Source: Eledone cirrhosa (taxonomy: Eukaryota). From it: a stretch of 64,000 bases of DNA. Position 1 is the stretch's first letter. Each line of letters opens with the position of its first letter. The translations under genes and the position numbers were made by a program. Under the pieces are notes generated by a model. The model was not told where the DNA came from. It saw only the letters and a list, made by a program, of their open reading frames with translations, and did not search any database. Location: contig OZ024750.1 of NCBI GenBank assembly GCA_964016885.1, positions 23,002,001 through 23,066,000 on the forward strand, given 5' to 3'. This document shows positions 17,735 through 28,279 of this stretch, in pieces.

Positions 17735-17980
17735 TAGTAATAATAATAAATTTGAAGACTAAAATCCAAAGAGGGCTCGAAAAGGATAAATATATATCAA
17801 ATATATAAGAACCGTAGAGCAAATATTTATTAAAATAACAGATTAAAGTTTAAGCAAAGAATAGCTGCTTTCACCCTTAACGGGATCTTCTGAAAAAAAC
17901 TAGTTTTTTTCAGAAGATCCCGTTAAGGGTGAAAGCAGCGATTCTTTGCTTAAACTTTAATCTGTTATTTTAATAAATAT
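17735..17980. mobile_element. Fold-back element in (TA)n (family B) with variant hammerhead-like motif
   Basis: 79-bp-arm palindrome 17823-17980 centred on CTAG, 1 mismatch. Second copy at 24284-24478; tiny terminal fragment at about 20606-20633. Confidence 0.65.
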
Positions 17981-18619
17981 ATATATATATATATATATAT
18001 ATATGTATGTATATATATATATATATATATATATATACACACATATATATATATATATATATATATACACACATATATATATATATATATATGTATATAT
18101 ATATTAATGATTATTATGAATGAATGAGAAAAATGAAAAGGAGATTAGACTAAGGAAGCAATACTTTCATTGGTTTTCCATTGCTGATGTTATCTGCCAG
18201 TCATAAATCTTGGCAAAAGGGGACATGATTTGAACTTAGAATGCATAGAGCCTGATCAGATATTGCAAAATATCGTGTTTGGCTGTTTAATAATTCCACC
18301 AGTCCACCACCACTGGATTGGTACTTAATTTATCGACCACAAAAAGTTGAAAGACAAAGTTGACTGTGGCAATATTTGAAGTCAGAGTTCAGAGAACCAG
18401 AGCAAATACCAAAGTAATTAATCTGATGCTCTAGCAACCCTGCCAATCTACTGCTTATGCGAGAGAAAGACGAGTAAGAAATTGTTTACTACTGATGATG
18501 GAGGTTAAGCAATGGCATTGTGGTGAAGGGAGAGACAAGATGGAACCAATGACTCCAAAAATTAGTGGGAATTTGGCAAATTACTAGCAAATAGTTCATT
18601 AAAACTGGGATTAAAAGAT

Positions 18620-19693
18620 TTAATCCTTTTGTTACAATATTTTTAATGAAATACACTGCCTATGATTTTTAATGAATTTTGAAAATAATCAAAAATTTGG
18701 AGTGATTTAGTAATATAACTAACTTTCTTAATATTAAGCTGGTGTCTTGAACATAACTTAACAAAGGTTCTTAACATAAAATTATGATGGAAAAGATTTA
18801 GATAAACATAAACACTTTAAACCAAAAATGTTTGTATCAAAGAACCAGGAGTGGTTTCAGGCAGTTTGGTATCAAAACTGAGGATGACAGAGTTTCTCAG
18901 TATTAAGCTAGAGTTAAACTGGCTCTTTCTCTGCATCTCTCTTGCTATCCTCTAGGTCTAACACATTCACAATTCTGTCCACAGAGATAACAAGGCAACA
19001 GTGATCAAATGTTTTGTAAAGGACATGAGATGGTAGTGTTATGAAATTAATGTTTAATTTTTACACTGTTTTATTTTAGGTATTATTCAACAATATATAC
19101 TCCATATATTTCTTTCAATACAGAAACTCAACAAAGGTTCTTACATAAAATTATGATAGTAGGTTTTTAGATAAATATAAACAATAACAAACAGTTCTGT
19201 ATCATAGAACCAGTGTCAGTTTGAAGTAGTTTGGAATCAAAAGTGGGCTAACGCTTTTGATATCAAACTGTCTATATTTTGATACAAAATCTCTAATTGT
19301 AAAGAGTTTATATTTACATTCAAACTTTCCATCACATTTTCTTAACCCTTTAGCATTTATATTACTCTATATTTTCTATTGTATTTTGGTAGTAAAGGCT
19401 TTATCTTACATAATATCTCACATAATATTGAATCTATGATATTATTTATTTTCAGGACAATACTCTAACATCAGTATGAGTGGCCAGTTATGGCTGATTT
19501 AAACAGAAAGGGGTGGAAGAATTCTAGCCCGATATGGCTGGTTTAAATGCTAAAGGGTTAAGATATGTTCTTAACACCATCCTAATAATGATGAAAGAGC
19601 CAGTTATTTTAATAAATCCTTACAAATTATTTTCAAAATTCATTATAACATATTGATAGAGTATTTCATTATAAATATGGCAACAAAAGGATA
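18620..19693. mobile_element. Cluster of older piggyBac-like MITE (P2) copies: 18620-18880 (+), 19130-19248 (+, partial), 19250-19693 (-, split by P1)
   Basis: Degenerate TTAA-CCCTTTtGtTAC termini; shared aacaaaggttct..acataaaattatgat and gtatca.agaacca segments. Confidence 0.55.
19346..19557 (+). mobile_element. piggyBac-type MITE (P1), nested inside a second piggyBac-like MITE
   Basis: Perfect 14-bp TIR CCCTTTAGCATTTA; TTAA on both sides. Confidence 0.9.
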
Positions 19694-19860
19694 AACCCTT
19701 TAGCTATGTATCAACACATTAATGATGTATTCTATAATGTTTACTTCTTCACTTCACAAACATTATCATGATCAGATAGAGTTTATCAGTTTATCTCTAA
19801 CATCCATTAAAAGTCTAGGCTGGACACACACAGATCTACAAATATTATGAATAGCTAAAT

Positions 19861-20047
19861 AAGGGCGGTGGATTGACAGTATCAGTGGAGGGTCGGACGC
19901 CATGCTTTCCAGCATAGTTACGTCCCTTTACGATCTGAGTTCAAATCCCGCCGAGGTTGACTTTGCCTTTCATCCTTACGAGGTCGATAAAATAAAGTAC
20001 CAGTAATGCACTGGGTAATTGCTGGCCTTGTGCCTAAAGTAGAAACA
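19861..20047 (+). mobile_element. Full-length tRNA-derived SINE (family S1, Meta-domain-like core)
   Basis: GGGCGG 5' end, B-box GAGTTCAAATCC, core GCCTTTCATCCTT..GGTCGATAAA..AGTACCAG; 17-bp TSD ATTATGAATAGCTAAAT. Confidence 0.9.
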
Positions 20048-25660: not shown

Positions 25661-25825
25661 TTTGATATATATATATACATATATATATACATACATATAT
25701 CAGATTGGAGAAGGTAAAAACCAGTTATTACTCACCAGAGTACTTGTTTTAACAGCTAGATCCGAACAGAATTTTTTCATATATATACACACACACACAC
25801 ACAATTATATATATATATATATATA

Positions 25826-26265
25826 TAAGAAATTTATTTGGTTTTATTGTCAAACACTGCCAAAGTACAGATATTAACTATAAAATGACTTAAATAAGTC
25901 AGGTAAATTATCCTTGGACAGGGAAAAAGGTGGTTCAATTTCTGCAGGTATCTCTGTTCATCATTTTCTGTTGCCAAGGCTAATTTACCTGACTTATTTG
26001 GCAGCTTTTCACAATAAAAGTGGATATATTGCACTATAAGTGGATATATTGCAAATTTGCAATATATCCACTTTTATTGTGAAAAGCTGCCAAATAAGTC
26101 AGGTAAATTAGCCTTGGCAACAGAAAATGATGAACAGAGATACCTGCAGAAATTGAACCACCTTTTTCCCTGTCCAAGGATAATTTACCTGACTTATTTA
26201 AGTCATTTTATAGTTAATATCTGTACTTTGGCAGTGTTTGACAATAAAACCAAATAAATTTCTTA
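25826..26265. repeat. Perfect 208-bp-arm inverted repeat in (TA)n
   Basis: Arms 25826-26033 and 26058-26265; the ORF track gives the identical 66-aa peptide on both strands. The 24-bp spacer repeats aagtggatatattgca. Confidence 0.95.
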
Positions 26266-26903
26266 TATATATATATATATATTTTTTTTCATCCGCTTTT
26301 CCCTGCTTGCAAGGGTGGGACGGGAACTGATTCTGGCTTGATTTCTACAGCTGGATGCCCTTCCTAACACCAACCTCATTTACAGTGAGTGGTGGGTGCT
26401 TTTTTGCCGTGGCACCTCCACGTCCACTTTGCAGTGGAATGATATGGACCCCAGTCCCTATCATCTCATTTCTACAGCTGAGTAAACTGGAGCAATGTGA
26501 AATAAAGTGTCTTGCTCAAGGAAACAACACATCACCCGTACATTATATATATATATATACATCACCGTACATTATATGTATATAATTGTGCGTGTGTGTA
26601 TATATATGTGTATATATATATATATATATATGAAAAAATTCTGTTTGGATCTAGCTGTATATATATATATATATATATATATGCTCTAGGTCATTGTTTG
26701 GCTGTCATGTTAGACACTGTGACCCTGAATGGACCAATGGTGACGTCAGTGAGGGTCAAGATTGTGTGCTTCCATTTCGATGGCCAGTAGCCGCAGAGTT
26801 TCTGTGCCTGTACCCAAATGTATATATATATCCCACCCTCATACATGTGTATATATATATATATATATATATATATATATATATATTACTAAGGTTGAGT
26901 CAG

Positions 26904-27003
26904 TGTCCTGTTACTTTCGAGTTTCACCTATATTTTCACAGGGTCATCAGTCTTGTCTGATGACCCTGGTGAACTACTGACAAAACTCCCGAGCAACAGG
27001 ACA
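26904..27003. ncRNA. Hammerhead ribozyme motif (family C) in an imperfect inverted repeat between (TA)n tracts
   Basis: Left arm on minus: CTGATGA C-CCTGT-GAAAAT-ATAGG-T GAAA CT-CGAA-AG TA ACAGGA (intact core, stems II and III, no stem I partner). Right arm on plus keeps stem I (TCTTGT/ACAGGA) and CTGATGA but has decayed GAAA and GUA. Confidence 0.6.
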
Positions 27004-28279
27004 TATATATATATATATATATATATATATATTTATATGTACAAATATATGTAAATATGTACATATGTATAGTGATGGAATGAGATACTCAATGCTGGTA
27101 GTAAGCAAAGCCAAAGTTACTACATCTATTGGGTTGGTTAGGACTCCAGGTTTCACCTTTAAAAAGTCTCTGTGAACATGGTCTTCACAGATATTCCGAC
27201 ACTGATGATTAAATATATGTCTGTATATATATATATAAACTTGCTAGGTGTTGAATCTCTTGAGTAACAAGCTACTGGATAATCTTAATAATATATGTAT
27301 TTATATACACTCACATACATATAATCCTTTATACATACACTTTTCCATGCTTGAAAGGGTTGGACCATATATATATACACACATATATATATATATATAT
27401 ATGCTCATCATTTGGTTTGCTAAAAGTGTCTGTGTTATGAATCAGCCACTGAAGGTGAAACTTGGAGTTGTAATCAACCAAAGCTGTATACTCTTTTACT
27501 CTTTTACCTGTTCAAGCCATCCGGCTGAGGCCATGCTGGGACACTGTATATATATATATATATATATATACCTACATACATACACATACATATAATACAT
27601 GTAATTACAATCTAATAATATATTTTACCTGGTCACTTAGATACTTAAAAATATAAAACGCTACCTTTATTACCTGGTAATTATTATTAAAATATAGTTA
27701 ATCCAATTTACTAATAAATAATTCAATTTTATCATATATTTACAGATGAAAACTAAATAATAATATAATTAGAGGCAAGGCATTTACAATGGTTGATATG
27801 CAGAGCAAATTTTATTTTCTTAGTCTAACATGGTAAACCTTGTTTATATATAATATTTTCTGTTGAATAATGCTTAAAAAATGTAATAATAATGGTTTGA
27901 AGAATTGTTTAAATTTAATTCATATTAATTTACATTGTTAATTGCACCATATTAAGCAAACAACACCACATTATTGCTGGGAGGGATTACAACGTCTTAA
28001 TGCAACTTAGGGGATTATTTATAATTTAGAGTGACCTCTGTGGACCCAACTAGCGTCCCCTTTGGCCCAAACTAGTTTAAGGAGAGACTAATCTTTAAAG
28101 GGTCTGGTGATGTCAGTATGGAAAATTGTCAGAAAGTAGAAGTAAATTATAAAACATAAAAAGCAACATAAAGGATGCAAAGATAAAAAGGAATGAACTG
28201 AAAAAAAAAGAAGAAACAAAAACTGAAAATAAATGAAGACATGAGGAAAATAATATGTAAATGTAGTTTGTTACACAAC

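What the first reader, a model, noticed from the sequence alone, without database searches (positions are those of the whole stretch)
17735..27210. A 10-kb zone of (TA)n-embedded fold-back islands from several unrelated families; inversion points coincide with ribozyme-like motifs
Seen: inverted-repeat islands at 17823-17980, 23763-24138, about 24370-24478, 24631-24745, 25826-26265 and 26904-27003 (also 7559-7666 and 46.5 kb), all bounded by (TA)n. In families A, B and C the fold-back occurs within about 25 nt of the 5' side of the hammerhead(-like) motif, at different exact positions in different copies. Inference: a shared integration mechanism in which a (TA)n-targeting Penelope-type RT stalls at the ribozyme structure and switches template, systematically making hairpins. 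In an ADAR-rich cephalopod these could be abundant dsRNA sources for editing or small RNAs.
Basis: partly seen in the sequence, partly recalled or inferred. Interest (0 to 1): 0.7.

Follow-up and report, generated by a model that had tools for sequence, protein, structure and literature searches.

The report
Penelope stubs mark likely RNA start
Most of these hairpins are real but ordinary back-to-back end pieces of Penelope-type jumping genes inserted in TA repeats, and in three families their centres sit at the front edge of the ribozyme, likely because the element's RNA begins there rather than because the ribozyme stalls copying.

Summary
The islands are real. [quoted passage not shown] Each insert is (TA)n, a tail-less arm, a joint, an inverted tailed arm, (TA)n: a published PLE shape. 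In tail-selected genome samples, 64 of 114 B arm ends lie 0-8 nt before the hammerhead core (mode -6, none from -9 to -27; 16-fold), 14 of 100 for A (6.8-fold); no C arm passed -9 in 30 loci. That is after the enzyme has read through the whole ribozyme, so it is not a stall. The link is not general: D lacks the peak, and 0 of 17 pairs from seven other hammerhead families centre there. A TATAAATA box lies 30 nt upstream in four B subfamilies. In 24 of 30 A pairs the short arm reaches further than the long arm, which excludes fold-back copying. Best reading: both nicked strands prime at two internal sites near the RNA's 5' end, run off it, and the cDNAs are end-joined. E and F are local inverted duplications without ribozymes. 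This scan reported the same before on other DNA. RNA start untested.

The parts
17737..17895 (-). A1 long (tailed) arm: end of a Hydra-type PLE, family positions -3..+154 relative to hammerhead C3
17896..17907 (.). A1 joint, self-complementary, centred on the A of the TTAGTT-type edge with a longer T run
17908..17976 (+). A1 short (tail-less) arm, -3..+69; holds a hammerhead-like fold with variant core CAGAAGA (17911) ... GAAA
   Evidence: fold by inspection, not the minimum-energy fold
20608..20644 (-). Minimal A stub: 26 nt of tail joined to 11 nt of the short arm
23766..24058 (-). D tail-less arm, +83..+380; ends about 11 nt 3' of the predicted hammerhead cut site (+72)
24059..24256 (+). 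D tailed arm, +303..+494; D is a roughly 690-nt tandem-type unit with no ORF found
   Evidence: joint bridged in short-read contigs
24286..24430 (-). A2 long arm, +12..+154
24429..24472 (+). A2 short arm, +22..+65; joint lies inside the hammerhead-like motif
24558..24691 (-). B1 long arm, -2..+132, with type I hammerhead core (C3 at 24689); end of a second Hydra-type PLE
24691..24742 (+). B1 short arm, +4..+55
25826..26265 (.). E: recent perfect inverted duplication (208-nt arms) of an old dispersed repeat that is itself a decayed inverted pair (25892-25999, 73%); short tandem duplication at the centre; no hammerhead
26887..26950 (-). C left arm, tail-less, minimal type I hammerhead (C3 at 26950)
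26951..27002 (+). C right arm, decayed hammerhead (C3 at 26957, GAAA changed), starts at -6
7556..7666 (.). F: tail-to-tail pair centred on (TA)n; right arm is the tail-less end of another dispersed family, left arm a short copy sharing a base not seen in 9 other copies
46399..46606 (.). B2: long arm 46399-46536 (-6..+132), 16-nt locally copied insert, short arm 46553-46606 (-4)
55566..55694 (-). Single tail-less B-subfamily arm reaching -77, with the TATAAATA box 36 nt before C3

Best explanation
Islands A-D are short two-armed insertions of Penelope-like element ends in (TA)n, likely made when both nicked strands prime reverse transcription at two internal sites near the 5' end of the element's RNA, the enzyme runs off that end, and the two cDNAs are end-joined head to head. 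Shown: family membership, coding parents for A and B, two fixed outer ends (tail-less and tailed), (TA)n targets, independent inner ends, and a sharp one-sided inner edge at -5 (A), -6 (B) and -9 (C). Inferred from the Anolis PAc work: nicking and extension of both strands and two start sites. Inferred here: the edge is the transcription start, which in these three families lies at the foot of hammerhead stem I, so the ribozyme is a neighbour of the edge and not its cause; arms that pass the edge come from the RNA's 3' repeat. E and F likely arose separately, by snap-back DNA synthesis at a break in (TA)n.
For: Full-length A copies run hammerhead, site 1 (+69), site 2 (+154), ATG (about +199), 708-aa frame, 3' UTR, second hammerhead about 3.3 kb on, so both start sites lie just inside the RNA's 5' part. 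Outer ends at (TA)n: 58 of 70 and 30 of 31 (A), 67 of 70 and 44 of 44 (B). Inner ends in -11..+2: B 64 of 114, 16.5-fold, P about 1e-35; A 14 of 100, 6.8-fold, P about 1e-6. Long and short arms peak at the same base although their lengths differ about two-fold. B histogram: mode -6, nothing from -9 to -27. C: 0 of 30 tail-selected loci pass -9. TATAAATA 35-36 nt before C3 in 27 of 29 B rows that have it, over four subfamilies whose spacer has diverged. Short arm reaches over 12 nt further 5' than the long arm in 24 of 30 A, 6 of 44 B, 6 of 10 D pairs; 15 of 30 A pairs do not overlap at all. 25 of 70 A long arms stop at +52..+78, about where the second priming site lies. A B arm joined head to head with a C arm in L080. 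Joints show short microhomology or small local inserts. PAc cleaves and extends both strands, starts at two internal sites that define the tail, and does not need ribozyme cleavage (PMC11167929, parts 1-2 of 4 read).
Against: No RNA 5'-end data: the start site is inferred from DNA only. A has an Inr-like TTAGTT at the edge but no TATA box at -30; C's upstream is unknown. The edge also ends in AG in A and B, and in D. virilis Penelope an intron ends at the 5' end of helix I (PMC4209133), so a splice-related edge is possible. 32 of 44 B pairs have near-equal inner ends, which fold-back would also give; arms are mostly subfamily-concordant (31 shared against 17 discordant recurrent sites, several of the latter alignment artefacts). 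A1's two arms share a longer T run. D has no foot peak (2 of 129) but an excess at +66..+90 (11 of 129, 3.8-fold, P 5e-4, window chosen after seeing data). Samples are the first 70 pattern hits on one chromosome, and end calls can shift a few bases by microhomology. No parent ORF was found for C or D.
Confidence: 0.62

Rival explanations
1. The template RNA does end at the hammerhead's 5' foot, but because of processing: 5'-3' trimming that halts at the protein-bound ribozyme, or splicing or trans-splicing at an AG there. The rest of the mechanism is the same.
For: Edge bases are AG in A and B, with pyrimidine-rich sequence upstream in B2 and B3. Intron end maps to helix I in D. virilis (PMC4209133). 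PAc protein assists hammerhead folding (PMC11167929). A lacks a TATA box.
Against: No exon-like jump in 32 of 32 B long arms ending at the foot; the 2 of 6 A candidates are TA-rich chance matches. Ends include the AG (mode -6). Protection by the ribozyme should act in all families, yet D and seven others lack the peak. TATA spacing is conserved in B.
Confidence: 0.17
2. One reading: RT stalls at the ribozyme and the cDNA folds back on itself or switches template, making the hairpin from one priming event.
For: 32 of 44 B pairs are near-symmetric; some joints use helix microhomology. Arms share subfamily variants; one A locus (L100) has the same internal deletion in both arms. D ends cluster near the 3' foot of its ribozyme.
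Against: Peak is at the 5' foot; end rate at cut site to +12 is not raised in A (4 in 898 nt at risk) or B (2 in 1224). 24 of 30 A pairs are impossible by fold-back. Arms share no rare variants in A (0 in 577 sites) and 2 in 1703 in B. 0 of 17 pairs in other hammerhead families centre there.
Confidence: 0.12
3. Longer inverted insertions were trimmed afterwards by cruciform-type deletion, leaving centres at short self-complementary spots such as AGCT in stem I.
For: AGCT and TTC/GAA offer 3-6 nt inverted microhomology at B's foot.
Against: Equal microhomology (up to 6) inside the core and in stem III attracts few ends; A's foot offers only 0-4 nt. Single-armed copies also end there (for example L105, L164, L169, L322). 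The edge is one-sided.
Confidence: 0.05
4. Assembly or library fold-back artefact.
For: E is a perfect 440-bp palindrome; raw long reads were not available.
Against: Arms differ by about 3% and have family-fixed outer ends at dozens of loci. D's joint is in short-read contigs and E's arm has doubled depth.
Confidence: 0.02

Closest known systems
Insertion unit of endonuclease-positive PLEs: pLTR, adjacent inverted 5'-truncated copy, tail on one end (Craig 2021 PMC8557442, passages; Arkhipova 2013 PMC3846280, parts 1-3 of 5)
   Same: Head-to-head arms, tail on one side only, microsatellite target, hammerhead in the pLTR; TATA and Inr-like motifs in the pLTR noted for Adineta.
   Different: Here most inserts are only 100-500 nt, tails are 60-120 nt rather than 30-40, and the inner ends pile at one base in some families; I did not find that pile-up described.
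Hydra clade of PLEs (PMC8557442, section 11 read)
   Same: C-terminal GIY-YIG, CxCX5C linker, DKT, no CCHH, CxxC and CxH motifs, (TA)n insertion.
   Different: RWR instead of RWK; unit about 3.3 kb; family A's hammerhead core is a U4A variant; no tree was built.
PAc, Poseidon element of Anolis (Frangieh 2024 PMC11167929)
   Same: Two internal RT start sites downstream of the hammerhead, both strands used, AT-rich target.
   Different: Other clade; the paper does not treat inverted pairs or run-off stubs in the parts read.
Minimal type I hammerheads of metazoan PLEs (Cervera and de la Pena 2014 PMC4209133, parts 1-2 of 4)
   Same: Extra base before helix II, palindromic loop III; that paper already notes pairs of motifs 100-700 bp apart on opposite strands.
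   Different: B, C and D have a pyrimidine-U opposition next to the core rather than G10.1-C11.1 by my reading; activity untested.
L1 twin priming and LTR minus-strand strong-stop DNA (recalled, not from a call)
   Same: Second priming gives an inverted segment (15 of 30 A pairs have that geometry); run-off at the RNA 5' end gives a fixed-length cDNA.
   Different: Second site is fixed, arms can overlap into palindromes, and the run-off product is integrated.
Non-LTR retrozymes (bioRxiv 10.64898/2026.07.22.740005, part 1 of 5)
   Same: D reads through into a further unit and carries a type I hammerhead, with no ORF found.
   Different: Two complete hammerheads in consecutive units were not checked.

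Membership tests
EN+ Penelope-like element insertion | RT plus GIY-YIG ORF linked to the same end sequence | tested here: met
   A: L150, L220, L471. B: endonuclease frame upstream in 5 of 10 long loci fetched. Not found for C or D.
EN+ Penelope-like element insertion | Partial tandem with pLTR overlapping the ORF start | tested here: met
   L220 and L471: hammerhead and tail at both ends, about 3.3 kb apart.
EN+ Penelope-like element insertion | Inverted 5'-truncated copy; tail on one end | tested here: met
   A 30 of 70, B 44 of 70, D 10 of 70 loci with a tail-less inverted arm; C 13 of 30.
Hydra clade | CxCX5C linker, DKT, no CCHH, CxxC and CxH in the endonuclease | tested here: met
   L471 motifs; B linker CNCPDKTTC in L469; definition.
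Hydra clade | RWK motif; length under 3 kb | tested here: inconclusive
   RWR found; unit about 3.3 kb owing to a 1-kb 3' UTR.
Hydra clade | Insertion into (TA)n | tested here: met
Hydra clade | Canonical hammerhead | tested here: inconclusive
   Met for B; A has CAGAAGA.
Hydra clade | Phylogenetic placement of the RT | not tested
   No reference set fetched; Pfam and PDB searches gave no hit.
Type I hammerhead ribozyme | CUGANGA and GAAA boxes, NUH site | tested here: met
   B, C, D. Not met for A (U4A) nor for C's right arm.
Type I hammerhead ribozyme | Three helices with covariation | tested here: met
   B, 14 chosen copies: 94% cells paired, 2 compensatory pairs in stem I; copies were pre-filtered for stem I pairing and are related, so this is soft.
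Type I hammerhead ribozyme | Rfam model match | tested here: not met
Type I hammerhead ribozyme | Self-cleavage | not testable with these tools
   Indirect hint only for D: ends at +71, +72, +72.
Non-LTR retrozyme (family D) | Tandem units each with a complete hammerhead, no ORF | tested here: inconclusive
   Read-through into the next unit in most loci, no ORF seen; second hammerhead not checked.

The most novel reading that the evidence does not exclude
The commonest product of Penelope-type retrotransposition is an integrated run-off cDNA of the RNA's own first 70-160 bases, so the joints of mirror-image stubs are a genomic map of each family's RNA 5' ends: transcription start for A, B and C, ribozyme cut site for D. 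Thousands of joints would then report promoter position and in vivo hammerhead cleavage without any RNA data, and supply thousands of intronic hairpins to an editing-rich animal.
Probability: 0.4. Interest if true: 0.6.

Novelty: new member of a known kind. Interest (0 to 1): 0.33.

Why it matters
How PLEs make their inverted ends, and what the hammerhead does, are stated open questions (PMC8557442). These families give large, young samples: 17,555 exact hits for one A 25-mer, 1,924 for B, 547 for D. If the edge is the RNA start, the hammerhead is a bystander in hairpin formation and stub joints become a free read-out of PLE promoters. By extrapolation from 70 loci each, about 15 of 70 A and 41 of 70 B insertions have overlapping arms, so several thousand hairpins; whether they are transcribed or edited is unknown. 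The structure itself is published, and annotation tools could mistake these stubs for MITEs or microRNA precursors (one search shows such weak matches).

Tried and rejected
Rfam: no hammerhead family hit. Pfam and PDB: no hit for the A protein; its identity rests on motifs. Unconstrained folds do not give the hammerhead as lowest-energy structure for A, B or C. Sequencing runs: no RNA holder listed, which is no evidence either way. A-to-I footprint in copies: singleton A>G not above T>C (A 9/2735 vs 24/5344; B 13/3440 vs 32/4400; D 17/4239 vs 31/6651). Exon-1 search at B joints: none. One RNA or two: arm comparison could not decide. First queries that included the hammerhead are biased and were not used for counts; counts use tail-only selections. 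In one search duplicate D loci were not dropped and references were mixed; one search repeats D with one reference, 3 of 100 loci dropped as duplicates. mis-anchored C locus L330 (by eye it ends at -6) and one C short-arm call (L337) is doubtful. Neptune and Naiad were considered for A and dropped for Hydra after reading the clade definition. A GTAAGT 470 nt upstream of B's hammerhead lies in TG-rich 3' UTR and was not taken as a splice donor. MITE reading of D rejected: arms are unequal pieces of one unit. Literature searches for a published run-off or start-site pile-up found none; subscription journals are not covered and supplements of PMC8557442 and PMC11167929, which may list octopus Hydra families or end maps, were not read.
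Full report
Setting. The window is G000:C10:23,002,001-23,066,000 in a 3.0-Gb genome. No tool named the organism; an earlier AI note on the same genome calls it an octopus. The zone is rich in (TA)n: 39 runs in 9.5 kb against 26 in 16.8 kb to the left and 29 in 23 kb at the right end. It lies about 6 kb beyond a 2,571-codon frame on the minus strand, so it may be intronic; that was not shown.

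Observation. All islands exist and exceed chance. They are not one thing. A1, A2, B1, B2, D and C are asymmetric two-armed inserts. E is a perfect 440-bp palindrome. F has the (TA)n in its middle.

What the families are. Genome copies of A lead into a PLE: L150 has a tail-less inverted A arm, then RT thumb, linker, GIY-YIG endonuclease, a 1-kb 3' UTR and the A end. L220 and L471 are full-length, with the hammerhead-like motif and tail at both ends about 3.3 kb apart and a 708-aa frame starting about 199 nt after the motif. Its motifs (RWR, DKT, YRDD, CxCX5C, CxxC, CxH, no CCHH) fit the Hydra clade, which is described as inserting in (TA)n. B has a related endonuclease upstream in 5 of 10 long loci. 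C and D share the architecture but no ORF was found; D reads through into a further 690-nt unit. Exact tail patterns occur 17,555 (A), 1,924 (B) and 547 (D) times. At least 20 hammerhead-bearing repeat families appear in the 1.35 Mb fetched.

Ribozymes. B, C and D have CUGANGA, GAAA and three helices; B's stem I shows two compensatory pairs across subfamilies, in a pre-filtered related set. A has CAGAAGA in the copies seen, so it is hammerhead-like only. Rfam finds none. Cleavage is untested.

Architecture. Each insert reads (TA)n, tail-less arm, joint, tailed arm, (TA)n, with both element 3' ends facing out. Outer ends are fixed (A +65-69 and +154; B about +55-65 and +132; D about +375-382 and +491) and sit in (TA)n. 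This is the published PLE shape: an inverted 5'-truncated copy with a tail on one end (PMC8557442; PMC3846280). PAc nicks and extends both strands and starts at two internal sites whose spacing is the tail; ribozyme cleavage is dispensable in vitro (PMC11167929).

Test of fold-back. A fold-back copy can only contain what the first cDNA contained. In tail-selected samples of 70 loci per family, the short arm reaches more than 12 nt further 5' than the long arm in 24 of 30 A pairs, 6 of 44 B pairs and 6 of 10 D pairs; 15 of 30 A pairs do not overlap. The window's D island is such a case. One locus joins a B arm to a C arm. Two primings followed by end joining fit; joints show small overlaps or locally copied inserts. 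Against a clean verdict for B, 32 of 44 pairs are near-symmetric and arms are usually of one subfamily.

Test of the ribozyme link. Counting ends per base at risk, the window -11..+2 holds 64 of 114 B ends (16.5-fold) and 14 of 100 A ends (6.8-fold); the core and the cut site to +12 are not raised. The B peak has mode -6 and nothing from -9 to -27. No C arm passes -9 in 30 loci. D has no such peak (2 of 129), and 17 head-to-head pairs from seven bystander hammerhead families have cores 54-256 nt apart, none within 25 nt, against 25 of 30 for B. Microhomology alone does not explain the peak.

Mechanism. A one-sided edge reached by arms of different lengths is what run-off from an RNA 5' end gives. 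In B a TATAAATA box lies 29-30 nt before the edge in four diverged subfamilies, standard Pol II spacing (own knowledge); A's edge is the A of TTAGTT, an Inr-like word. PLE promoters lie in the pLTR (PMC2377424, passages; PMC3846280). Because both priming sites lie 70-160 nt inside a transcript that starts there, priming at the 5' copy gives stubs, and priming at the 3' copy gives the longer arms. Processing or splicing at the AG of the edge remains the main rival; no exon jump was found.

E and F. E's relatives are 71-93% alike over parts and are themselves old inverted pairs, while E's arms are identical, so E is a later inverted duplication of resident DNA. F's arms share a base absent from 9 other family copies, which also points to local copying. 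Snap-back synthesis at a (TA)n break is inferred.

dsRNA. No RNA run was listed and copies show no A>G excess. The editing idea is open.

Verdict. Real, mostly explained by known PLE biology, new Hydra-type members. The start-site reading is not in the papers I could search, but this scan reached both the mirror-stub and the run-off readings before on other DNA; those notes are not independent support, and my note of the idea precedes those look-ups. What this window adds is the family contrast: the centre follows the ribozyme in three families and not in eight others. Interest 0.33.

Noticed in passing
family A, window 17911-17917 and genome copies: A very abundant young Hydra-type family keeps a complete hammerhead-like fold with U4 changed to A (CAGAAGA); cleavage unknown.
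   Followed up: partly
L203, L036, L049, L261, L353, L403, L459, L462 (cluster 3): Another hammerhead family piles its inner ends 83-91 nt upstream of the core at a TCACT/CCACT word, suggesting a start site away from the ribozyme.
   Followed up: partly
family D, L191, L439; pattern hits about 670-770 nt apart: About 690-nt tandem-type unit with a long-helix-II hammerhead and no ORF found; retrozyme candidate with ends at the predicted cut site.
   Followed up: partly
window 15657-15853, 19342-19561, 21831-22047, 47296-47514, 56092-56307: Five copies of a 200-220 bp element with short terminal inverted repeats, MITE-like.
   Followed up: no
window 19895-20055, 24931-25091 and about 15 more: Very abundant SINE-like family, often inserted into (TA)n and into the PLE stubs.
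   Followed up: no
window 22445-22617: Another (TA)n-bounded family with a 25-nt tandem duplication; forms inverted pairs elsewhere (L003, L033).
   Followed up: no
window 33253-40968, minus strand: Single open frame of 2,571 codons, low complexity, no Pfam hit; likely one giant exon.
   Followed up: partly
L465:1789-4053 (+); L221 and L220 parts: A 755-codon RT plus GIY-YIG frame of a different PLE lineage sits next to B copies.
   Followed up: no
L413 (G000:C1:118.47 Mb): A whole two-armed B insertion with its (TA)-rich flank is triplicated in tandem with a 1.06-kb period.
   Followed up: partly
window 49495-49980, 59800-60449, 45518-45860: Young minisatellites of 29, 31 and 24 bp.
   Followed up: no
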